From NCBI GenBank assembly GCA_020723065.1, contig DYJP01000005.1:2668-66667 (forward strand): a stretch of DNA of 64,000 nucleotides, in the 5' to 3' direction. Made by a program: the position numbers and the translations under genes. The DNA is from Candidatus Micrarchaeum sp. GTDB taxonomy: Archaea; Micrarchaeota; Micrarchaeia; CABMEP01. How positions within the stretch are numbered: the stretch's first letter is position 1; each line of letters opens with the position of its first letter. This document shows positions 886 through 64,000 of the stretch, piece after piece. A model generated the notes under the pieces. That model had not been told where the DNA came from, ran no database searches, and was given only the letters and a program-made list of their open reading frames with translations.

Positions 886-3800
886 TCAGTCAAAAGACCT
901 GTCGTCGACTACCTCATCGATCTCAAAATAATTTGGCTCTGAGGGAAGCTCTAGCTTTTCAAATTTGCCTATAGGGATCAGCGGAGCATTCGCAAAATCA
1001 ATAACCTGCCCTTCCTTCTCCTGAAAATAGATATAGTCTCCCTTCGCACCTATCACCGTAACTCCATTAGCCCGGATCCAGTCTCCTATGGTCTTATATG
1101 CCATATTAAGGAATTCTCTAAAGGAAGCCACACCTTCCGGCGCAATATGGTAGACTGCATTGAACACTCTGCTCCTATGTGTAGCAAGGCTGAACTGGTT
1201 GAATGCGAATATCAGATTCTCAGCAGATATCTTTTCTGTAAGACTCCTATTCTCATCTTTTGACAGAATATCAATAATTGACTTTTCTATCTCTCTAAAT
1301 TTTATGAACTGTGCCCTGAACCTATCGAGCTTCTTCTTGGAATCCTCTTCAAGAAGATCAACATACATATCTGGCATCTCATTAAGGGAGATTAAGTCAG
1401 AATTCTCCTTGCTGAAAAGATCTACGAACGAGAATATAAGCTGAGAATCCTCCCTCCTTGTCGGCTCCGATCTAATAAACGCCTTTATCTTCCTACTGGA
1501 AGACTTATCCTTTACCTTTAAAGTGGTATAAAAAGACCTAAAACTGTCCTTCAACATGAGATAGGCGTGCTTATATTTTAGTGTTAGCAATTTGTTCTCC
1601 ATCGAATCAAACTCTGAATTCAATGAGGCATTATACGCACCGTTGCTCTTGAAAACTGTGATGTAATAGCGCTGAAAAAGCATAAGCATTTCAGACATAC
1701 TCATATTTATCTGGTGCATGAACTCTTGTAAGACATCCTTCTCCCTTCGGTATAAATAATAATCGACGTGGATGTGCCTTCTCATGAAATATTTTGGATA
1801 TTGAAGCTGGGCGAAACGCACAACTGGATCTTTGTGAAGCTTCGAGAAATAATCGTGCCACTGGGGGGTATTCGGAAAGAATGTTCCGGAAACCAGAAGT
1901 TCTAACGGGATATATGCGATTCGCACGTTTCTAAAAACACCCTTGGAAGGAAGTTGTATTATCCCTTCGTCCTCAAGTTGCCTCTTCATGTAGGTATCGA
2001 GACGTTTCTTGAATATCTGCCTCTCATCCTCCCTCATCTTCTCTTTGTATCCGTAATTGAGCTGAGCATGCCTTGACTGCCACTCCCGGATATGGAATAT
2101 TTCTGTGATTGAATTTGGAGAGAATGCAACATCCGTAATCGGAATGTGAGGGACCATTCCGGCAGCACTATATATCGTTTTAAGCAAAGGTTCGAAAAGA
2201 AACATCTCTCTAAGGGGATCGATATCACAAATTGAATATCTGTCAAGAGTCTGTTCCGCAACCGCGTCCCCATTTATCGCTTTTATCTCAAGCTCCTTGA
2301 GCTCATCGTGAGTTGCTATCTTGTGGAACTCTCCAGACAGAATAGTCGGAAAGCCCATCCTGCGCTTTTCTCTGTATATAAAATTAGAGACGTCCGCAAG
2401 CTTGTGGGTCATTCCGAACGCATTTGTCTTCAAATATGGAAACCAGACTGCACCTAGCCTGTATGTGTCGATCACTTCCTGCGCAACCATAGAAATCTTC
2501 TGGTAAAATCCTCTTCTCCAAATTCTCGGCTCCTTCTTTTTCACTGCCAGATCAAAAGAAGTGGTCCGATTCTCTCTTGCACCATCTCTAATGTTACTCA
2601 AATCGTAAGGGATTACATGACCCACTATCCTGTACGGCTGCTCATGCTTGAGAAAATTGAGCACAGAGCCTATGAGCTCATATTCATTATCATAATGAAG
2701 AACGATAAAGCCATTTAAATTCTTCTCATGCTCCCTTGAATTAGCGGTTGACGGATTATTAAGCTTGAAATAGAGCCTTACCTCAGAACCATCCTCCCTT
2801 GTTATATGCATCATCACCCTCGATATTTGCTCCTTGTACCTATCCTGGCTGAGATCTACATCTCCAGACTGCTTTGACTTGAACAGAATCTTGGACGTCA
2901 ACTCCGATATCTTTTCCTTTGTCTCTAAAGGATCCAGCTTGGAATTGGGATTGATGAGTTCTGCCTGAAGCTCGGAAATCTGACTCAAGATTTTCCTTTC
3001 CTCTTCAGTCTTCCACATCGGCTTTTCGATATCCAGGAAACAAGTTGACAGGGATTTCCAGCATTCGTACGAAATTCTGTTCTTATGCACTATAAGACCA
3101 TTTGGCTCCGTCTTTCCATGCTCAAATGGATTGCTCGAACTCTTAGATTCGAGCACTATCTCATATGCCTTTGTATCGTCATTATACCTGAGTGAATTCT
3201 TTGAATCTAACTGCTTAACTATCTCTCTCAATGAAAAGAAAAGAGAGGAAAGTTTTTTCATATTCTCTTCTATTCTTTTGAACTTCTCACTATCTTTAAG
3301 GAACATTTTGTAAACAATAGGAAATTTCTTGGAAACAAACTTAAACTGACTCGGATCGTTAAATGCACTCATGCTGTATTTTTCTCTATAAAATTTCCTT
3401 ATCTGGTTAAATGCCCTAGTCTTTTTTGCAGCCATAGACGGATCGTAATTTTCGCAAGAATAAAAAGATGAGACTATATCTGAAGCCTTCTCGTAAAGCT
3501 GACCAAGAGTTTCAAACCTGGAAAATAAATATTCAAGGCTTTCATTAATGGTCACTTCCCTGTACATCCACTCCAATTCCCGACGTATAACTTTATTCAG
3601 ATTCTTTATTTGAAAACCGTATTTCTTAAGCTTGTTTAAGATTTTCTTGTCACAAGGTACTTCCGCATTGAGAACAAAGAGATGGGAATCTTCAACTTGA
3701 AATGAAATATTCGGAAAGTTTACTTCCAACTCCTTTTTTTTGTCCCGGAATCTTAATGAAATGTACGCTGTAATTTTATACTTTGCAACATTCTCATCTT

Positions 3801-4179
3801 TATGCACCCGTTTAAGCACGGATACGAATTGCTCATAGCTATAAAATACTGGTGTTGCAACCTTCACAGGATGCCTGACATAGACTGTGATAGTCTTGGG
3901 GTCATCCAAAGACCATTTTCTCAAAGACAAAATAAGCCGGTTCTCCCTGGATTCATATTCCTCAAAGCCCAGGTGACTCACAAACCAGAATGGCTTGATG
4001 CGGCCGAGCGATTCCCGTACAGCTTGCTCCTTTGTCTTCGAAATCTCATCAAAAATATAATTGTCCGCCTTCGAATCCATTTGCGGAACTTCGAAAGGCT
4101 CTTCATCTATTATTTCATCTTTAAAATTAATTGTATGATTAGCTAGGACTGCATCTTGCAATTTATGTCGTATTTGCAT
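886..4179 (-). CDS. Large (1097 aa) soluble hypothetical protein of unknown family. Weak acidic motifs: LDIEKP, HYDNEYEL, KTNAFG, YSICDIDPL, PHIPITD.
   Basis: Uninterrupted 3.3-kb ORF with an ATG start. No P-loop, no Cys clusters, not hydrophobic. Bracketed by tRNA-Pro and tRNA-Leu. The motifs faintly resemble family-B exonuclease DxE/NxxFD and polymerase or primase DxD, but are not diagnostic. Confidence 0.6.
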   Translation of the reverse strand: MQIRHKLQDAVLANHTINFKDEIIDEEPFEVPQMDSKADNYIFDEISKTKEQAVRESLGRIKPFWFVSHLGFEEYESRENRLILSLRKWSLDDPKTITVYVRHPVKVATPVFYSYEQFVSVLKRVHKDENVAKYKITAYISLRFRDKKKELEVNFPNISFQVEDSHLFVLNAEVPCDKKILNKLKKYGFQIKNLNKVIRRELEWMYREVTINESLEYLFSRFETLGQLYEKASDIVSSFYSCENYDPSMAAKKTRAFNQIRKFYREKYSMSAFNDPSQFKFVSKKFPIVYKMFLKDSEKFKRIEENMKKLSSLFFSLREIVKQLDSKNSLRYNDDTKAYEIVLESKSSSNPFEHGKTEPNGLIVHKNRISYECWKSLSTCFLDIEKPMWKTEEERKILSQISELQAELINPNSKLDPLETKEKISELTSKILFKSKQSGDVDLSQDRYKEQISRVMMHITREDGSEVRLYFKLNNPSTANSREHEKNLNGFIVLHYDNEYELIGSVLNFLKHEQPYRIVGHVIPYDLSNIRDGARENRTTSFDLAVKKKEPRIWRRGFYQKISMVAQEVIDTYRLGAVWFPYLKTNAFGMTHKLADVSNFIYREKRRMGFPTILSGEFHKIATHDELKELEIKAINGDAVAEQTLDRYSICDIDPLREMFLFEPLLKTIYSAAGMVPHIPITDVAFSPNSITEIFHIREWQSRHAQLNYGYKEKMREDERQIFKKRLDTYMKRQLEDEGIIQLPSKGVFRNVRIAYIPLELLVSGTFFPNTPQWHDYFSKLHKDPVVRFAQLQYPKYFMRRHIHVDYYLYRREKDVLQEFMHQINMSMSEMLMLFQRYYITVFKSNGAYNASLNSEFDSMENKLLTLKYKHAYLMLKDSFRSFYTTLKVKDKSSSRKIKAFIRSEPTRREDSQLIFSFVDLFSKENSDLISLNEMPDMYVDLLEEDSKKKLDRFRAQFIKFREIEKSIIDILSKDENRSLTEKISAENLIFAFNQFSLATHRSRVFNAVYHIAPEGVASFREFLNMAYKTIGDWIRANGVTVIGAKGDYIYFQEKEGQVIDFANAPLIPIGKFEKLELPSEPNYFEIDEVVDDRSFD

Positions 4180-5528: not shown

Positions 5529-5972
5529 TTGATTCTGGCAATTTTATTTATTTGGTACGCAAACTTATCTTCTTCATTAGATAGAAGGCAAAACGCCACC
5601 GTGGGTCATCTAATAACTTCTATGTCTGCATCAGTTCTGATAATATATCTTGCAGTACAGTTCAGACTGAAACAACGCGCATTCCACAGGGAAGCAGCCT
5701 ATTTGATGACAATCTTTGGAATACTCAGCTTCTATTTTGCATGGAAATACGGATTTGCGCTTCAATTCTCGCTAAACACTGCCGACCTACACAATATATT
5801 CGGCTTCTTGTCGCTCGGTCTTTCGCTTTTCCCGATGATCTTAAGACCAGGAGGAAAACTGAAGCTTCACTGCAGGATTGCGACTACAGCGGCATTTTTT
5901 GCAATATTGAGCATTATAACGGGAATAATGGCTTACGGACACCACATACTCAGAATTTTTGGAATGGAATAA
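5529..5972 (+). CDS. Hypothetical polytopic membrane protein
   Basis: 147-aa ORF with about four hydrophobic segments. No recognised motif. Confidence 0.45.
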   Translation: MILAILFIWYANLSSSLDRRQNATVGHLITSMSASVLIIYLAVQFRLKQRAFHREAAYLMTIFGILSFYFAWKYGFALQFSLNTADLHNIFGFLSLGLSLFPMILRPGGKLKLHCRIATTAAFFAILSIITGIMAYGHHILRIFGME

Positions 5973-6032
5973 AATAATCGAGAACTAAGCATTGGTTTAA
6001 AATGATTATAGAACAAATAAAGTTGTGATAAT

Positions 6033-6230
6033 ATGGGTACTCTCTCAGTTGCATCTGTCGAACGACTTATACGATCCGCAGGAGGAAACAGAGTAAGCAA
6101 GGACGCTGCCGAAGCATTGTCAGTGATTCTTGAACAAAAGGGAATGGAAATAGCCTCCAAAGCCGCAAAGCTTGCAAGACATGCGGGAAGAAAAACTATA
6201 ACTGCGGACGACATAAGACTAGCACAGTAA
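6033..6230 (+). CDS. Archaeal histone (HMf/histone-fold family)
   Basis: 65 aa. Clear similarity to HMfB (RLIRSAGGNRVSKDAAEAL...EIASKAAKLARHAGRKTITADDIRLA). Confidence 0.85.
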   Translation: MGTLSVASVERLIRSAGGNRVSKDAAEALSVILEQKGMEIASKAAKLARHAGRKTITADDIRLAQ

Positions 6231-6266
6231 TTTTAATTTTTAAAAATATAAAAGATTTCCAAGCAC

Positions 6267-6635
6267 TCAAAGCTTAGAAAGCGCGTATATCAGTATCGCA
6301 TCCAAAACCAAGAAAGAAACAGCAAGAACATTTCCTGGCGATCCTAAAATATAGACATTGGAGAATTCGTTTAACACCATCATTTCCATGGCGATCGCAG
6401 ACATAACCACTATGGCTTTTGAAACAAATATTCCATAGGTCAGTATCACATAACCCCCAAATATAGCAATGAGAATCCAGCTCAAAAGAGCGAGATCGCT
6501 GAAGGAAGTGAACCAGAGAACTATCGAAGATGCCAGTATGAGCATCAAGAAAGAAATGAACTTGGTCTTCAGATTGTGCTCTATTATTTCAATTTGCTTG
6601 GATTCCTTTTTAGTTTTTCTTACTGTCCCGACCAA
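6267..6635 (-). CDS. Hypothetical small membrane protein
   Basis: 122 aa with three predicted TM segments. Confidence 0.4.
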   Translation of the reverse strand: MVGTVRKTKKESKQIEIIEHNLKTKFISFLMLILASSIVLWFTSFSDLALLSWILIAIFGGYVILTYGIFVSKAIVVMSAIAMEMMVLNEFSNVYILGSPGNVLAVSFLVLDAILIYALSKL

Positions 6636-6651
6636 CTGATCTACCCCTGGA

Positions 6652-6897
6652 TTACATTAAATTAACTTCTTCTACCTGTGCCTGACTAACTCCAGGTATC
6701 TTGTTGAGCTTTTCTTCTACATCACCGCCTGCGCTATCGGGCATGATAATCAATACCTTCAATGCTTTCATTCCAAAACCAACATCCTCCAATCTGGAAT
6801 CCTGAAGCTTTCCTATATTAGAAATTTCCGCCTTGATAGAATCAAATTTAGAAGGATCTTCTGAATAAATTTTTGCTGTTACCATTACATCTCCCAT
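6652..6897 (-). CDS. ef1b: Translation elongation factor aEF-1 beta
   Basis: 81 aa. Characteristic aEF-1beta length and motifs (KIMPDS...EEKL...IPGV). Confidence 0.75.
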   Translation of the reverse strand: MGDVMVTAKIYSEDPSKFDSIKAEISNIGKLQDSRLEDVGFGMKALKVLIIMPDSAGGDVEEKLNKIPGVSQAQVEEVNLM

Positions 6898-7082
6898 AAA
6901 ATCACTATAGTTATATTGGAGGGAGAGCTTTAAAAGATTTATTAACTTTGAAATTTAGAGAATTAGAAAACATCAACAGAAAGGAATAAAAATAGGAATT
7001 ATCTAATATATATAACTGGTTTTGCATAAACAAGAGCATTGTCTTAATGCATCCAGCATTATATTTTACTTAAGGTGAATTT

Positions 7083-37313: not shown

Positions 37314-37452
37314 CGCGGAGGGCGAGATTTGAACTCGCACGGCCAATTAAGACCACCAGCTTACCAGCAAACTCTTTAAGAAAGAGTTTGATCAGAAATG
37401 AATTCTGAACCAATTTCCAGGCTGGCGCAATACCAGGTTATGCGACCTCCGC
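37314..37452 (-). tRNA. tRNA-Ser (anticodon GGA) with an about 52-nt canonical 37/38 intron
   Basis: Acceptor GCGGAGG/CCTCCGC. Discriminator G (a Ser identity element). Anticodon stem CCAGC with loop CTGGAAA, interrupted before the GCTGG return strand. Long variable arm (GGTC/GGCC). T-arm GCGAG-TTCAAAT-CTCGC. Confidence 0.6.
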
Positions 37453-59430: not shown

Positions 59431-60732
59431 ATGCTTGACATAAAGCTCATAAGAAAAAACCCTGAAATAGTCAGAGCGGATCTCCAAAAAAGAGGAGACA
59501 TTGAAAAGATCCAGTGGCTGGAAGACTTAATCCAGAAAGACAAGGAATACAGGGAACTGCTCGGGGAAGTGGAGAAGCTCAGAGGCCAGAGAAATACGGT
59601 CACAAAGCAGATCGCAGACGCAATGAAGAACAAAGACATCCAGAAGGCAAATGAAGCCAAAAAAGCGGCTGCCGAAATACCTGAGAAGATAAGACAGGCA
59701 GAGCAAAAAATGGAAAAAATACAGGAGAAAGTCAAATTTTACCTCATGAGGTTACCGAATATACTCCATGAAAGCGTCCCAGTAGGAAAGGGAGAGGAAG
59801 ACAATGTGGTGGTAAGGACCTGGGGAATCCCCAAGAAAAAGGAAGACTATGGGTTCGAGATGAAAAGCCATGTCGACCTTCTACCAATGATTGACGGCGG
59901 AAACCTGGAGAAGGCTGCCGAAGTCTCAGGCGCAAGATTTTATTACTTAAAAAATGATCTAGTGCTGCTAGACATGGCTATCCAGAGAATGGTCATGGAC
60001 ATAATTGTAAAGAAAGGTTTCATTCCAGTGTATCCTCCATTCATGCTCAAGAAAGAACCATACGAAGGAGTGACCGACCTTGGAACGTTCGAGGAAGCAC
60101 TCTACAAAATAGAAGGAGAAGACCTCTATCTGATTTCCACTTCGGAACACCCTATAGCTGCAATGCACATGGGAGAGATAATTGAAGAGGAAAGGCTGCC
60201 GATCAAGTACGTTGGATTAAGCACCTGCTTCAGGAAGGAAGCCGGAGCCCACGGGAAGGACACGAAGGGAATATACCGAGTCCACCAGTTCAATAAGATA
60301 GAAATGTTCATATTCTGCAAGCCTGAAGACTCCTGGAAGCTCCACGAAGAACTTCTGAAGAACGCTGAGGAAGTGTTTCAGAAGCTCGAAATCCCCTACA
60401 GAATCATAAACACCTGTACTGGAGAGATAGGAATAGTGGCTGCTAAGAAATATGACCTTGAAGCTTGGATGCCGGTTCAAAATTCTTACAGGGAAATGGT
60501 TTCCTGCAGTAATTGCACAAGCTACCAGTCAATTAGACTAGGGATCAGATATGGCAAAATAGGGAGCGGAGAAAAAGAAAGCCTACACACCCTTAACAGC
60601 ACCGCGATAGCCACCCCCAGGGCGATAGTTGCGATAATGGAAAACCACCAGAACGCCGATGGATCCATAACTATTCCAAAGGCGCTCGTACCTTATTTCG
60701 GAAAGGACAGAATAGAGCCTGTAAAAAGATAG
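59431..60732 (+). CDS. serS: Serine--tRNA ligase
   Basis: N-terminal coiled coil. Class II motifs 2 and 3 (FRKEAG, GSGEKESLHTLNSTA). AGGTGA Shine-Dalgarno motif. Confidence 0.85.
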   Translation: MLDIKLIRKNPEIVRADLQKRGDIEKIQWLEDLIQKDKEYRELLGEVEKLRGQRNTVTKQIADAMKNKDIQKANEAKKAAAEIPEKIRQAEQKMEKIQEKVKFYLMRLPNILHESVPVGKGEEDNVVVRTWGIPKKKEDYGFEMKSHVDLLPMIDGGNLEKAAEVSGARFYYLKNDLVLLDMAIQRMVMDIIVKKGFIPVYPPFMLKKEPYEGVTDLGTFEEALYKIEGEDLYLISTSEHPIAAMHMGEIIEEERLPIKYVGLSTCFRKEAGAHGKDTKGIYRVHQFNKIEMFIFCKPEDSWKLHEELLKNAEEVFQKLEIPYRIINTCTGEIGIVAAKKYDLEAWMPVQNSYREMVSCSNCTSYQSIRLGIRYGKIGSGEKESLHTLNSTAIATPRAIVAIMENHQNADGSITIPKALVPYFGKDRIEPVKR

Positions 60733-60832
60733 CGATTTTTCCAATCCAAACAAGAATTAGCTTTAGAAAAGCAAGAGATAAATATAATTAAATTCAAATA
60801 ATAAGGAATAGATTTAAACAATAGAGAAAGTG

Positions 60833-62038
60833 ATGCGAATGAGCACGGACAAGCAGAAAAGAGAAATGACAAAGCTAATAAACAAGCTGCGAAACATAAG
60901 GGGCAGCGGCACGGAACTCATCAGCATCTACATACCAGCTGGATATCCCATTACTGAAACCATTAACAAGCTCAGGACAGAGCACGGTCAGGCAGGAAAC
61001 ATAAAGTCGAAGACCACGAGAGGCAACGTCCAGGATGCAATAGACAAAATACTTAATTACCTCAAACTTTTCAAGAAAACCCCCAAGAACGGGATCGCAA
61101 TATTCTGCGGAAACATTTCAAAGGATCCAGGAAAGACGGACATAGAACTCTTCTCCATAGAGCCTCCGCTCCCGCTCCAAGTCAGCATGTATAGGTGTGA
61201 CTCTGAATTCCTTCTGGAACCACTGCGAGAGCAGGGCAAAGTAAAAGAAAGATACGGGCTTGTCACCATAGACGGAAAAGACGCAACGATCGCGATACTC
61301 GAAGGCAACACTACTAAGATAGTCAAAAGACTCACCACCACAGGCCCGAGCAAGTCCACGAAAGGAGGATCGTCCGCAGCCAGGTACCAGAGATACGTGG
61401 AAGAGCTCATAGAGGATTACTACAAGAGAGTGGGAGAGGCGATGGACGAAACGCTCATAACCTCAGGAATAAAGAAAGTCATAGTCGGAGGCCCGGGACC
61501 GGTAAAAGAGAATTTCCTAAAAATGAAGGCATTCAACTACCAGTTCCAGATCATAGCCGTTCTGGACACCGGATACGTCGATGACTACGGGATACAGGAG
61601 CTCGCGAGAAAGTCTGTTGAAGTGATATCCGAGGAGAAGGCCAAGAAGCAGAAGAAGCTGATGGACCAGTTCTTCGGAGAGGTAGCAAAGAACGGACTCG
61701 CAGTATACGGCCCGAAGGAAACTCTTGAAGCCATGGACAGCGGAAAGCTCAGCCTGCTTCTCCTTTCGGAAGGAATAGAGACCAAACACTATGTCATCCA
61801 GTGCGAGGAAGGGGAAGAAGAACAGTTCATAGACGGCGACATCAAGGAGAAGGAAATGAGATGCAGCCACGGAAAGAAGATAGAGAAGCTTATCAACGAA
61901 CAGGAAGTATTTGATGAAGCCTACGAAAAGGCAGAAAAGCACGGAATCGAGCTCGAACTGATCCCTGCCGACAGCAACGAAGGAAAGCAGTTTCTTGGCG
62001 GATTCAGAGGAATCGGCGGAATACTAAGATACAAATAG
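60833..62038 (+). CDS. prf1: Peptide chain release factor aRF1, with a GGS in place of the GGQ motif
   Basis: aRF1 N-domain with NIKS (GQAGNIKSKTTRGNV). Domain 2 reads TKGGSSAARYQRY, where GGQSALRF is expected. Confidence 0.8.
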   Translation: MRMSTDKQKREMTKLINKLRNIRGSGTELISIYIPAGYPITETINKLRTEHGQAGNIKSKTTRGNVQDAIDKILNYLKLFKKTPKNGIAIFCGNISKDPGKTDIELFSIEPPLPLQVSMYRCDSEFLLEPLREQGKVKERYGLVTIDGKDATIAILEGNTTKIVKRLTTTGPSKSTKGGSSAARYQRYVEELIEDYYKRVGEAMDETLITSGIKKVIVGGPGPVKENFLKMKAFNYQFQIIAVLDTGYVDDYGIQELARKSVEVISEEKAKKQKKLMDQFFGEVAKNGLAVYGPKETLEAMDSGKLSLLLLSEGIETKHYVIQCEEGEEEQFIDGDIKEKEMRCSHGKKIEKLINEQEVFDEAYEKAEKHGIELELIPADSNEGKQFLGGFRGIGGILRYK

Positions 62039-62113: not shown

Positions 62114-62755
62114 TTAGCTTGAATTCGCGGATGTGATCACGCTGGTTTTTCCTGATGAAGATATCCTGAATGAACATTCGTCTGTGAAAGATTCATCCAC
62201 AAAAATGAAAGCCGTATTGACACTAAATATTGAATACGAAGCCCCGTACCTTATATAGAATGTCACATGGGCTGGATTGAGGTTCGCTGACTCTATTTCT
62301 GCGATGCATTCAGATGCAGTCTTCACCGAAGTCTCATTGGATACCTGGCTTTCGTTCAGACTAGGAGAACTGTAAGTGCAGGAATCGCCTTCTATAACAT
62401 ATACCGAAAGCATTGATATATTCTTTCCAAGTTTGCCCCAACTTCCCGCAAGGCCCGCTCCACAGGCATACACATACTGAGAATTGCTTGCATCAAGATC
62501 TGTCACGTTGGCAACTATGGAGATGCTTTCTGCGTTATAAAGTGTTTCGCTGAACTCCTGGACATTTCCTGTGTAATTTATCGCATTGTCCGATTTGCCT
62601 ATATCACTGCTTATCGGCTTTGAGGTGCTGAACACCCAGAAAAGAACAATGAAAACTACAAAAAGGGCAAACGCCAAGAACATCATATCCTTCGTCACTC
62701 TCGTCTTTCTCGACGCTTCCTGATCTTTCACTCCTTTTTTCAATTTTTCCGCCAT
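62114..62755 (-). CDS. Hypothetical membrane-anchored extracellular protein
   Basis: N-terminal TM helix, Ser/Asn-rich ectodomain, several N-x-S/T sequons. Confidence 0.4.
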   Translation of the reverse strand: MAEKLKKGVKDQEASRKTRVTKDMMFLAFALFVVFIVLFWVFSTSKPISSDIGKSDNAINYTGNVQEFSETLYNAESISIVANVTDLDASNSQYVYACGAGLAGSWGKLGKNISMLSVYVIEGDSCTYSSPSLNESQVSNETSVKTASECIAEIESANLNPAHVTFYIRYGASYSIFSVNTAFIFVDESFTDECSFRISSSGKTSVITSANSS

Positions 62756-62791: not shown

Positions 62792-64000
62792 TCATTCCAT
62801 GAATTCGGCCACATAGCATTTCTCAAAATACTCCTGACCTCCCTGGATTATTCCTTCCGGCTTATAGAACGTGTAGAAATTCGAGTCATCTATATCAGAA
62901 TACTGGAGCTGTATCAAGGGCTCATCACCCAAGTCCGACATACATTCAGTAAGAAGCCTGTCGTTACATATTCCGTCAACAACGGATATCTTATTGACTT
63001 CTACTCCATCCATTATGAATTTGACTTCAAGGTCGGATGCGCAGCCAAGGATAGCTGTTGAATTTTCAGTTGAAAGATATTCCACCATAATATTTACCTT
63101 GCCCGCATCCTTCACTTCAGACATGAAGTCATAAATGGACGTACTGCTGATCTCGTTAGAGATTGCGACGTTCAAGGCGTAAGACAATCCAAGCAGCAAA
63201 ACTATCACCACTGCGAAGATCGCTATCCAGGTATTGATCACTTTGGTCCTGAGGAATGCGGACGAACCTTTCATCACAAGGAAGAAGAACGCAACTGAGA
63301 AAACTGCAAGGAGCAGTATGTCAGTAATTCCTATTATGATGAGCGGTATGTTAGTCATCCACGCCCTCTTCTCACTCTCCTTTATTCCCAGAGGGGTTGA
63401 GAATGTATCGAGAACCGCTAGGGAGACTCCCTTCATTGTTGACGACAATGCCGAAGGAACTGTCTCTGCATTCGATTCCTTTTTCTTGGCAATTAGAGCT
63501 TCAAGATCTTTGACTATGCCGGAGAATTCATCCGAGAATGAAGGAATCTCGGAATAAACTATCTTCTCCGAGAGCTTTGCATTCAAACTACTGTATTTGC
63601 TCTTCAATGTCTGAAGGTCTGCATACAGCGTGGAATCTGATTCATCTATGACCACCGATGCCTTCTCGAAGAGCATCTCTGCATTGTCCCTGTAGTCGAC
63701 CATGGTATTGAAAGATGAGTAAGTTATGTTCAGATAATTCTCAAAATCGTCCAATTCGTCCACTATATAGCTGAGAACCAAGCCAGCAGAATCCGTCTGC
63801 CCGCTACTGAGATTAGCATAGAACGCCTGATTGAGGGATTCGACCGATGACAGGTAATTGCTTATCTGGGAATCATCCATAAGTTCAAGTATGGATGTTC
63901 CGGTATCTGAAAGTTCGTTGTACCTTGAAGACAGGTTATTAAACTGATTCTGAAGGTTTAATTTCGCCTTCGTGCTTCCATATAGATCTATTCTCCTGAA
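62792..64000 (-). CDS. Hypothetical membrane protein. The ORF continues past the window end, so the 5' end is incomplete.
   Basis: The frame stays open upstream of the ATG at 63880 to position 64000. Central TM pair and a Cys-containing C-terminal domain. Confidence 0.4.
   Translation of the reverse strand, partial: FRRIDLYGSTKAKLNLQNQFNNLSSRYNELSDTGTSILELMDDSQISNYLSSVESLNQAFYANLSSGQTDSAGLVLSYIVDELDDFENYLNITYSSFNTMVDYRDNAEMLFEKASVVIDESDSTLYADLQTLKSKYSSLNAKLSEKIVYSEIPSFSDEFSGIVKDLEALIAKKKESNAETVPSALSSTMKGVSLAVLDTFSTPLGIKESEKRAWMTNIPLIIIGITDILLLAVFSVAFFFLVMKGSSAFLRTKVINTWIAIFAVVIVLLLGLSYALNVAISNEISSTSIYDFMSEVKDAGKVNIMVEYLSTENSTAILGCASDLEVKFIMDGVEVNKISVVDGICNDRLLTECMSDLGDEPLIQLQYSDIDDSNFYTFYKPEGIIQGGQEYFEKCYVAEFME

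What the first reader, a model, noticed from the sequence alone, without database searches (positions are those of the whole stretch)
61364..61372. aRF1 carries GGS instead of the universally conserved GGQ peptidyl-tRNA hydrolysis motif
Domain 2 reads STKGGSSAARYQRY (GGA GGA TCG). Canonical aRF1/eRF1 has GGQSALRF. The Gln is the catalytic, methylated residue of all class I release factors. The NIKS stop-recognition motif is intact. Changing CAG to TCG needs two substitutions, so a single sequencing error is unlikely. This may be a divergent paralog or a Pelota-like rescue factor derived from aRF1. Alternatively the termination chemistry is genuinely altered. TAA, TGA and TAG all appear as stops in this window.
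Basis: seen in the sequence. Interest (0 to 1): 0.6.

Follow-up and report, generated by a model that had tools for sequence, protein, structure and literature searches.

The report
Archaeal release factor with GGS, not GGQ
The protein that ends translation in this tiny archaeon has serine in place of the glutamine long described as universal in all release factors. The change is real and is kept by selection across a whole lineage, so the glutamine side chain may not be indispensable in nature.

Summary
Window 60839-62038 (+) encodes a full-length aRF1 (TIGR03676, 405 bits against a cutoff of 234.7). It has intact NIKS and YxCxxxF motifs. GGA GGA TCG at 61364-61372 aligns with GGQ.

It is not a sequencing error and not a one-off. 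Twenty-nine database homologues, down to 53% identity and all from Micrarchaeota (DPANN archaea), carry GGS. They form a clade with 100/100 bootstrap support. All six serine codons occur at this site, while synonymous sites are saturated.

The gene sits in the serS→aRF1 locus shared with canonical GGQ Micrarchaeota. It is therefore the positional ortholog of the canonical factor, not a Pelota-like offshoot.

The glutamine was also lost independently elsewhere:
- a second Micrarchaeota clade has GGS;
- one lineage has GGA;
- 113 of the 118 other listed hits to a GGW query, from Aenigmatarchaeota and Nanoarchaeota, have GGW.

I found no paper describing any of this.

Most likely this is the organism's working release factor. 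Catalysis would rest on the Gly-Gly backbone and the main-chain NH, and the factor cannot be Gln-methylated. I could not show that no second, GGQ-bearing aRF1 exists elsewhere in the genome.

The parts
60839..62038 (+). aRF1 gene (399 aa from the ATG at 60839; an in-frame GTG at 60830 would give 402 aa). Stop codon TAG at 62036-62038.
   Evidence: ORF list. TIGR03676 scores 405 bits against a cutoff of 234.7. Pfam eRF1_1, eRF1_2 and eRF1_3 all match. P0001 is 100% identical and starts at the ATG, as do the homologues.
60872..61231 (+). Domain 1 (eRF1_1, stop-codon recognition), containing NIKS and YxCxxxF.
   Evidence: Pfam PF03463, residues 15-134 of the 402-aa ORF.
60998..61009 (+). NIKS motif (AAC ATA AAG TCG).
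   Evidence: Read. N54, I55, K56 and S57 are invariant across the GGS and GGQ relatives.
61190..61210 (+). YxCxxxF motif (YRCDSEF).
   Evidence: Read. Y118, C120 and F124 are invariant.
61253..61630 (+). Domain 2 (eRF1_2, the peptidyl-transferase-centre-reaching M domain).
   Evidence: Pfam PF03464, residues 142-267. In the AlphaFold model the loop sits immediately before helix 178-207.
61364..61372 (+). GGS tripeptide (GGA GGA TCG) in the position of the GGQ hydrolysis motif.
61646..62035 (+). Domain 3 (eRF1_3). In this subclade the usual CxxC...CxCG cysteines of the insertion are mostly lost.
   Evidence: Pfam PF03465, residues 273-402. Alignment columns 340-385.
59431..60732 (+). Seryl-tRNA synthetase gene directly upstream. 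This is the conserved neighbour that marks the ancestral aRF1 locus.
   Evidence: Pfam annotations. serS lies next to aRF1 in about 35 GGQ and GGS Micrarchaeota loci and in the GGA locus L088.
62114..62755 (-). Small gene (213 aa, no Pfam match) converging on aRF1. It is a conserved downstream neighbour.
   Evidence: Homologues lie in the same position in L007, L008, L009 and in several GGQ loci. No Pfam family matched.
62792..64000 (-). 3' part of a gene of about 688 aa that runs off the window. It is the second conserved downstream neighbour.
   Evidence: The full gene is 688 aa in L001. Homologues of about 700 aa lie in the same position and orientation next to GGQ aRF1 in the sister loci L003-L006 and others.

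Best explanation
This is the organism's ordinary class-I release factor, the positional ortholog of aRF1. In its lineage of Micrarchaeota the Gln of GGQ has been replaced by Ser, and the Ser is kept by purifying selection.

Shown here:
- the substitution is real and shared by the whole clade;
- the gene is orthologous to canonical aRF1;
- the other functional motifs and the fold are intact.

Inferred mechanism: domain 1 still reads UAA, UAG and UGA. After delivery by aEF1-alpha-GTP, the M-domain loop enters the peptidyl-transferase centre. The two glycines give the required backbone geometry, and the main-chain NH of residue 3 (now Ser) positions the hydrolytic water. In bacterial factors the Gln side chain has only a 'packing' role that selects water as the nucleophile. 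Here that role is lost or taken over by the small Ser hydroxyl. N5-methylation by Mtq2 is impossible on this factor. Release would therefore use the same basic chemistry, without the side chain and without its methylation, perhaps more slowly or with less nucleophile selectivity.
For: - **Family and fold.** Searches show a full-length aRF1 with GGS aligned to GGQ. The predicted fold matches aRF1 4af1 (TM 0.74) and accommodated eRF1 5lzv (TM 0.73), against 0.48 or less for Pelota and Dom34.
- **Clade-wide GGS.** All hits P0001-P0027 (53-100% identity), P0074 and P0093 carry GGS. All other hits in that search carry GGQ.
- **Monophyly.** With the motif columns masked, the main GGS clade is recovered in 100 of 100 bootstraps.
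- **Conserved loop.** K172, K175, G176, G177, S178, R182, Y183 and R185 are invariant within the GGS sequences.
- **Selection on Ser.** The Ser codon is TCG, TCC, TCT, TCA, AGC or AGT in different members. Within the clade pS is 0.75-0.95 and pN is 0.13-0.23.
- **Positional orthology.** serS lies upstream in about 35 GGQ and GGS loci. The downstream small gene and ~700-aa gene are shared with the GGQ sister loci.
- **No sign of a second copy where I could look.** There is no second aRF1 or Pelota in the 64-kb window. The 80 best GTDB loci come from 80 different assemblies. Three main-clade GGS genomes and five sister-type GGQ genomes never coincide.
- **Standard code.** All three stop codons are in use and coding density is 84% under the standard code.
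- **Independent recurrence.** A second GGS clade exists. A GGA lineage sits at a serS-aRF1 locus and was seen in two assemblies. GGW occurs in 113 of the 118 other listed hits of P0238. A GGW gene and a GGQ relative share the same upstream neighbour gene.
- **Literature.** In bacterial RFs the main-chain amide is catalytic, Gln-to-Pro abolishes release, and the side chain has a packing or nucleophile-selecting role (PMC4691834, citing Shaw and Green 2007 and Santos 2013; PMC5799190).
Against: I could not search the whole genome, so a canonical GGQ aRF1 elsewhere is not excluded. No activity data exist for any natural GGS factor. Published in vivo work treats GGQ as essential (Song 2000 and Mora 2003, as cited in PMC4691834). 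Loss of the aRF1 Gln methyltransferase roughly doubles the generation time of Haloferax volcanii (PMC6144793), so a free loss of the Gln is unexpected. I found no compensating substitution in aRF1. The 23S rRNA and Mtq2 of these genomes could not be examined.
Confidence: 0.7

Rival explanations
1. The GGS protein is one of two aRF1 genes. A canonical GGQ copy elsewhere in the genome performs peptide release. The GGS copy has become a stop-codon-binding but hydrolysis-poor factor, for example for recycling with ABCE1, for rescue, or for hibernation.
For: Whole genomes could not be searched. Members of the aeRF1 superfamily without hydrolytic function do exist: Pelota, Dom34 and Balon appear among the weaker fold matches.
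Against: The GGS gene, not some other gene, occupies the ancestral serS-aRF1 locus. It shows no rate acceleration and its GGS loop is invariant. NIKS and YxCxxxF are retained. Eighty assemblies gave one locus each, and GGS and sister-type GGQ genes never shared an assembly. No GGQ hit in the listed tables lies on a contig of the same length as the 349-, 256-, 143-, 81-, 78- or 70-kb contigs that carry GGS genes.
Confidence: 0.2
2. The gene is a decaying or catalytically dead remnant, and the lineage relies on its host or on some unrelated hydrolase for termination.
For: DPANN archaea have reduced genomes and depend on hosts (general knowledge). The catalytic hallmark residue is missing.
Against: The ORF is intact and highly conserved through saturating synonymous divergence. 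The GGS loop is invariant. Inteins are kept at exactly this site in GGS alleles, and these must splice out to give a functional protein. Ribosomes cannot borrow a host's release factor without protein import, for which there is no evidence.
Confidence: 0.05
3. The GGS is an artefact: a sequencing or assembly error, or a Ser codon that is recoded or edited to Gln.
For: None beyond the prior expectation that GGQ is universal.
Against: The same residue appears in 29 homologues from NCBI, JGI, ENA and Logan sources. It is encoded by all six Ser codons, which no single recoding or editing rule could cover.
Confidence: 0.01

Closest known systems
Canonical archaeal aRF1 / eukaryotic eRF1 (TIGR03676; PDB 4af1, 3agk, 1dt9, 5lzv)
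   Same: The three-domain architecture is the same, as are the NIKS and YxCxxxF decoding motifs and the GG-x-S-x-x-R-[FY] loop and helix. The predicted fold matches (TM 0.73-0.74). The genomic locus next to serS is the same as in other Micrarchaeota.
   Different: The third motif residue is Ser rather than Gln, which the literature describes as universally conserved and methylated (PMC6144793, PMC5799190). The factor therefore cannot be a substrate for Mtq2 N5-glutamine methylation.
Engineered GGQ-glutamine mutants of RF1, RF2, eRF1 and aRF1 (Shaw and Green 2007; Seit-Nebi 2001; the GGA mutant of H. volcanii aRF1)
   Same: A different residue replaces the Gln while both glycines are kept. The literature attributes catalysis to the main-chain NH and gives the side chain a packing or water-selecting role. 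Q-to-E retains reasonable activity, and only Q-to-P abolishes release (PMC4691834). The GGA mutant of aRF1 is not methylated (PMC6144793).
   Different: Those are laboratory mutants, and GGQ is reported to be required in vivo. Here the substitution is natural, fixed and maintained for a very long time in the orthologous gene. My recollection that Ala, Ser and Gly variants keep much of their hydrolysis rate is from memory; the primary papers were not held.
Pelota / Dom34
   Same: It belongs to the same aeRF1 superfamily with related domains 2 and 3, and it lacks a catalytic Gln.
   Different: Pelota has a different N-terminal domain, no NIKS and no GG loop. The window protein scores 52.7 bits against a Pelota cutoff of 177.65. 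Its structural match to Pelota and Dom34 is TM 0.48 or less.
VLRF1/Vms1 and the bacterial baeRF families (Burroughs and Aravind 2019, PMC6514570)
   Same: The same RF peptidyl-hydrolase domain. That survey documents variation in the small residues around the catalytic Gln (GGQ, GxuQ, GGxSQ).
   Different: In all those families the Gln itself is retained. Here the Gln is the residue that is lost. The window protein gives only weak partial matches to baeRF_family10 and acVLRF1.
GGW aRF1 of Aenigmatarchaeota / Nanoarchaeota, and GGA, GGF and GGM variants
   Same: These are full-length DPANN aRF1 proteins with NIKS in which the Gln is replaced. At least one GGW gene has the same upstream neighbour gene as a GGQ relative.
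   Different: The replacing residue is different (large aromatic or hydrophobic rather than small polar) and the phyla are different. They are independent events rather than close relatives of the window's gene.

Membership tests
aRF1/eRF1 class-I release factor | Three-domain architecture eRF1_1 + eRF1_2 + eRF1_3, with a full-length equivalog score | tested here: met
   Pfam E-values are 4.6e-18, 5e-26 and 2.4e-22. TIGR03676 scores 405 bits against a cutoff of 234.7 over positions 2-402 of 403.
aRF1/eRF1 class-I release factor | Stop-codon recognition motifs NIKS and YxCxxxF in domain 1 | tested here: met
   GNIKSK lies at 60995-61012 and YRCDSEF at 61190-61210. The columns are invariant.
aRF1/eRF1 class-I release factor | GGQ tripeptide at the tip of domain 2, with Gln as the methylated hallmark residue | tested here: not met
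   The motif is GGS (GGA GGA TCG, 61364-61372). The Ser aligns to the Gln of 4af1 and eRF1. Both glycines and the following S-x-x-R-Y are kept.
aRF1/eRF1 class-I release factor | aRF1/eRF1 three-dimensional fold | tested here: met
   The AlphaFold2 model has pLDDT 82.8. Foldseek gives 4af1 E 7.6e-40 and TM 0.74, and 5lzv TM 0.73.
aRF1/eRF1 class-I release factor | Orthology with canonical aRF1 (same locus, nested within the aRF1 tree of the phylum) | tested here: met
   The serS-aRF1 adjacency and the downstream neighbours are shared with GGQ loci. The clade is nested among Micrarchaeota GGQ aRF1 sequences.
aRF1/eRF1 class-I release factor | It is the genome's (single) release factor | tested here: inconclusive
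   No second copy lies in the 64-kb window. Each of the 80 best GTDB loci comes from a different assembly. However, the scans were truncated and whole genomes could not be read.
aRF1/eRF1 class-I release factor | Stop-codon-dependent peptidyl-tRNA hydrolysis with aEF1-alpha-GTP | not testable with these tools
   This needs biochemistry.
Pelota/Dom34 rescue factor | Pelota equivalog score and a Pelota-type N-terminal domain, without NIKS | tested here: not met
   TIGR00111 scores 52.7 bits against a cutoff of 177.65 and covers only residues 143-331. NIKS is present. TM to Pelota and Dom34 is 0.48 or less.
Balon / Rv2629-type hibernation factor (aeRF1 homologue) | NF052289 equivalog score | tested here: not met
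   30.6 bits against a cutoff of 320. Structural matches have 13-17% identity and TM 0.42-0.53.

The most novel reading that the evidence does not exclude
In this Micrarchaeota lineage the only class-I release factor has no catalytic glutamine, and the same appears to hold more widely in DPANN archaea (GGS and GGA in Micrarchaeota; GGW, GGF and GGM in Aenigmatarchaeota, Nanoarchaeota and others). If so, living cells terminate every protein without the 'universal' GGQ Gln and without its N5-methylation. The Gln side chain would then be an optimisation rather than a requirement. These lineages would be natural experiments on its role, possibly with co-adapted ribosomal peptidyl-transferase centres or with loss of Mtq2.
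Probability: 0.6. Interest if true: 0.85.

Novelty: new variant of a known kind. Interest (0 to 1): 0.74.

Why it matters
The papers read here call GGQ universally conserved in release factors of all three domains, and dedicated enzymes methylate its Gln (PMC6144793, PMC5799190, PMC4691834). Whether the Gln side chain is catalytic, merely a 'packing' residue, or mainly a methylation handle has been argued from laboratory mutants. Natural orthologous factors that carry Ser, Ala or Trp and have been kept by selection for very long periods would show what the ribosome truly requires.

They would also make several predictions directly testable:
- release rates and nucleophile selectivity of GGS and GGW factors;
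- the fate of Mtq2 and Trm112 in these genomes;
- compensating changes in 23S rRNA.

There is a practical consequence too. Annotation or quality filters that treat a missing GGQ as an error or a pseudogene would be wrong for these phyla.

Tried and rejected
- **Sequencing error.** Rejected because the residue is conserved across the clade and encoded by six different Ser codons.
- **Pelota-like factor.** Rejected on model scores and fold.
- **Stop-codon reassignment.** No sign of it. All three stops are used and coding density is 84%.
- **Second aRF1 or Pelota in the window.** An HMM search of all 196 ORFs of 60 aa or more found only the one gene.
- **Gln methyltransferase in the window.** No ORF has an NPPY motif. 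The only [ND]PP[YFW] matches are in a 126-aa ORF and in an ORF antisense to aRF1. This says nothing about the rest of the genome.
- **Compensatory substitutions.** The only column shared by both GGS clades and rare among GGQ Micrarchaeota is His-to-Pro eight residues upstream. Pro is the usual archaeal and eukaryotic state there and also occurs in the GGQ sister group, so it is not a specific compensation.
- **GTDB and metagenome scans for a second locus per genome or contig.** I treat this as weak evidence.
- **Primary papers.** Shaw and Green 2007 and Seit-Nebi 2001 are not held. I relied on how later open papers describe them.
- **Literature searches.** Searches for natural GGS or GGW release factors gave nothing relevant. 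The 'GGS' hits were DOI strings of the journal Genes Genet Syst. TIGR03676 as a marker was not found in any main text.
- **Taxonomy of non-Gln representatives.** Cluster look-up returned no organism names.

Full report
**1. What is there**

The window encodes, on the + strand, an ORF from 60830 (GTG) or 60839 (ATG) to the TAG at 62036-62038. Homologues start at the position of the ATG, so the product is most likely 399 aa.

It has the three Pfam domains eRF1_1, eRF1_2 and eRF1_3. It scores 405 bits on the NCBIfam equivalog model for aRF1, TIGR03676, whose cutoff is 234.7. The match covers positions 2-402 of 403. The Pelota model gives only 52.7 bits against a cutoff of 177.65.

The bases at 61364-61372 are GGA GGA TCG. 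In HMMER alignments to solved aRF1 (4af1) and eRF1 chains, the Ser lies opposite the Gln of GGQ. NIKS (60998-61009) and YRCDSEF (61190-61210) are intact.

An AlphaFold2 model (mean pLDDT 82.8) matches archaeal aRF1 4af1 (TM 0.74) and ribosome-accommodated eRF1 5lzv (TM 0.73). It matches Pelota and Dom34 much less well (TM 0.48 or less).

**2. It is not an error and not a one-off**

A search of 5.8 billion proteins placed the gene in Micrarchaeota, a phylum of DPANN archaea. The source names include Candidatus Micrarchaeia, Gugararchaeum, Burarchaeum and Anstonellales.

All hits from P0001 to P0027 (53-100% identity), plus P0074 and P0093, carry K-G-G-S-[SA]. Every other listed hit carries GGQ.

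I built a neighbour-joining tree of 232 sequences with the four motif columns masked. The main GGS group (27 sequences) was recovered in 100 of 100 bootstraps. A second GGS group (P0074, P0093, P0121-P0125) was also recovered in 100 of 100. The two were never united (0 of 100).

Within the GGS sequences the loop is invariant: K172, K175, G176, G177, S178, R182, Y183 and R185.

At the DNA level the Ser codon varies between members:

| Clade | Codon | Loci |
|---|---|---|
| Main | TCG | window, L095, L096, L099 |
| Main | TCC | L007, L093, L097 |
| Main | TCT | L094 |
| Main | TCA | L098 |
| Main | AGC | L008 |
| Main | AGT | L009, L100, L101 |
| Second | TCG | L023 |
| Second | TCA | L121, L123, L137, L158 |

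Synonymous sites between members are saturated (pS 0.75-0.95), while pN is 0.13-0.23. Ser has thus been held by selection through very long divergence, including switches between the two unconnected Ser codon families. This rules out sequencing error, and it rules out any single recoding or editing rule.

**3. It is the ortholog of the canonical factor**

In the window the gene is preceded by seryl-tRNA synthetase (59431-60732). Two convergent genes follow it, of 213 aa and about 688 aa.

The serS-aRF1 adjacency is present in about 35 of the Micrarchaeota loci I fetched, GGQ and GGS alike. The downstream pair recurs beside GGQ aRF1 in the loci L003-L006. These loci belong to the group (P0085, P0104, P0109) that branches next to the GGS clade in the first tree. 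That sister relationship is weak: it was recovered in only 29 of 100 bootstraps.

The GGS gene therefore occupies the ancestral aRF1 locus. It shows no obvious rate acceleration in the tree.

**4. Is it the only release factor?**

This is the weak point of the analysis.

- The 64-kb window holds no second aRF1 or Pelota.
- A scan of GTDB species genomes returned 80 best loci (43-77% identity) from 80 different assemblies. Three main-clade GGS assemblies (JAVZPM, CABMEP, CAYHPR), one second-clade GGS assembly (JBNAVG) and five sister-type GGQ assemblies each appear once, and they never coincide.
- No GGQ hit in the listed tables lies on a contig of the same length as the GGS-bearing contigs of 349, 256, 143, 81, 78 and 70 kb.

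I therefore rate 'sole aRF1' as likely but unproven.

All three stop codons end long ORFs in the window (TAA 30, TGA 22, TAG 7). Coding density is 84% under the standard code. There is no hint of stop-codon reassignment.

**5. The same residue is lost elsewhere in DPANN**

- P0217 has GGA (codon GCA). It sits in a serS-aRF1 locus and was found in two assemblies, ENA ERZ27237515 and Logan SRR13236739.
- Single sequences show GGM (P0192) and VGQ (P0220). These may be errors.
- An exhaustive profile search of 1.84 billion cluster representatives turned up full-length aRF1-like proteins with NIKS but with GGW, GGF, GGM, GGA or GGE.
- Using one GGW protein (P0238) as the query, 113 of the 118 other listed hits (57-78% identity) carry GGW. 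Where sources name them, they are mostly Aenigmatarchaeota or Nanoarchaeota. Some lie on contigs of 271-665 kb.
- The GGW gene P0440 and its GGQ relative P0493 share the same upstream KaiC-like ATPase gene. That again points to substitution within the orthologous gene.
- Inteins are inserted exactly after the third motif residue in GGS, GGQ, GGW, GGF and GGM alleles.

**6. How it most likely works**

The papers I could read call GGQ universally conserved (PMC6144793, PMC5799190). They describe the following for bacterial release factors (PMC4691834, PMC5799190):
- the two glycines adopt a backbone conformation that only glycine allows;
- the main-chain amide of the Gln coordinates the hydrolytic water;
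- Gln-to-Pro abolishes release;
- the side chain has a packing role that selects water as the nucleophile.

In Haloferax volcanii, Mtq2 methylates the aRF1 Gln. A GGA mutant is not methylated, and deleting mtq2 doubles the generation time (PMC6144793).

On that basis I infer that the GGS factor still decodes stop codons through its intact domain 1. I also infer that it still catalyses release through the Gly-Gly backbone and the main-chain NH of Ser178. It would do so without the side-chain contribution and without methylation. This mechanism is inferred, not shown.

I looked for compensating changes within aRF1 and found none that is specific.

**7. Comparison with what is known, and novelty**

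By sequence, fold, motifs and locus this is an aRF1. It fails one textbook defining feature of the family, the Gln of GGQ.

Known relatives that vary the motif (VLRF1/Vms1 and the bacterial baeRF families) still keep the Gln (PMC6514570). Pelota lacks the whole loop and also lacks NIKS.

Eight full-text searches for natural GGS, GGW or other non-Gln release factors, or for GGQ in DPANN archaea, found nothing relevant. That library omits most subscription journals, so prior description cannot be excluded.

I classify the finding as a new variant of a known kind.

**8. Verdict**

The 'genuinely altered motif' reading is supported.
- My confidence is 0.7 that this is the working, probably sole, release factor of the lineage. 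The main rival, a hidden GGQ paralog, gets 0.2.
- Interest is high for translation specialists. A residue taught as universal is dispensable in nature in at least this clade, and apparently in large parts of the DPANN archaea.

Noticed in passing
Proteins P0238 and P0376-P0493; locus L090 6001-7212 (GGW codon TGG near 6529-6531): A large group of DPANN aRF1 proteins carries GGW instead of GGQ: 113 of the 118 other listed hits of P0238. Where sources name them, they are mostly Aenigmatarchaeota or Nanoarchaeota. Some lie on contigs of 271-665 kb. The GGW gene P0440 and a GGQ relative (P0493; L091, L092) share the same upstream KaiC-like ATPase neighbour.
   Followed up: partly
Proteins P0074, P0093, P0121-P0125; loci L023/L087 (aRF1 gene 5807-7003), L121, L123, L137, L158: A second Micrarchaeota clade with GGS (flank APPKTHKGGSSAARYQRI) is phylogenetically separate from the window's clade (0 of 100 bootstraps unite them). 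Here the gene is not next to serS. It lies beside the ribosomal protein genes S11, S4 and S13.
   Followed up: partly
Protein P0217; locus L088 4573-5787 and locus L089: A Micrarchaeota aRF1 has GGA (codon GCA) in a serS-aRF1 locus and was seen in two assemblies. Single sequences with GGM (P0192) and VGQ (P0220) may be errors or very recent variants.
   Followed up: partly
Proteins P0011, P0026, P0066, P0224, P0235, P0241, P0246 and many other cluster representatives: Inteins of 135 to more than 500 aa, some with homing-endonuclease domains, are inserted exactly after the third motif residue (GG[QSWFM] | C...HN | S). The conserved Ser after the motif serves as the +1 extein residue. Intein-bearing alleles make up a large share of the 50%-identity cluster representatives.
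   Followed up: partly
Representatives P0290/P0373 (GGF), P0365 (GGM), P0330 and P0368 (GGA), P0362 (GGE), P0239, P0314, P0329 and P0352 (GGW): Further aRF1-like proteins have NIKS but a non-Gln third residue. They include short forms of about 350-356 aa that lack the domain-3 insertion. Their taxonomy is unknown, because cluster look-up gave no organism names.
   Followed up: no
window 37314-37452 (-): Rfam reports a 139-nt tRNA match (43.1 bits) that ARAGORN does not call. It looks like a tRNA gene interrupted by an intron of roughly 65 nt.
   Followed up: no
window 61750-61900 (aRF1 domain 3); alignment A1 columns about 340-385: In the window's subclade the CxxC...CxCG cysteines of the domain-3 insertion (a zinc-ribbon-like element in most relatives) are largely replaced by acidic residues (QCEEGEEEQF...RCSHGKK).
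   Followed up: no
window 889-4179 (-), 62114-62755 (-), 62792-64000 (-): A 1097-aa ORF and the small gene downstream of aRF1 have no Pfam match. The conserved downstream neighbour of about 688 aa has no family on record. This small-plus-large gene pair travels with aRF1 in many Micrarchaeota, and its function is unknown.
   Followed up: no
window 61057-61410 (-): A 117-aa ORF lies antisense to aRF1 across the GGS region. It has 'homologues' in other loci only because aRF1 itself is conserved. It is almost certainly not a gene.
   Followed up: no
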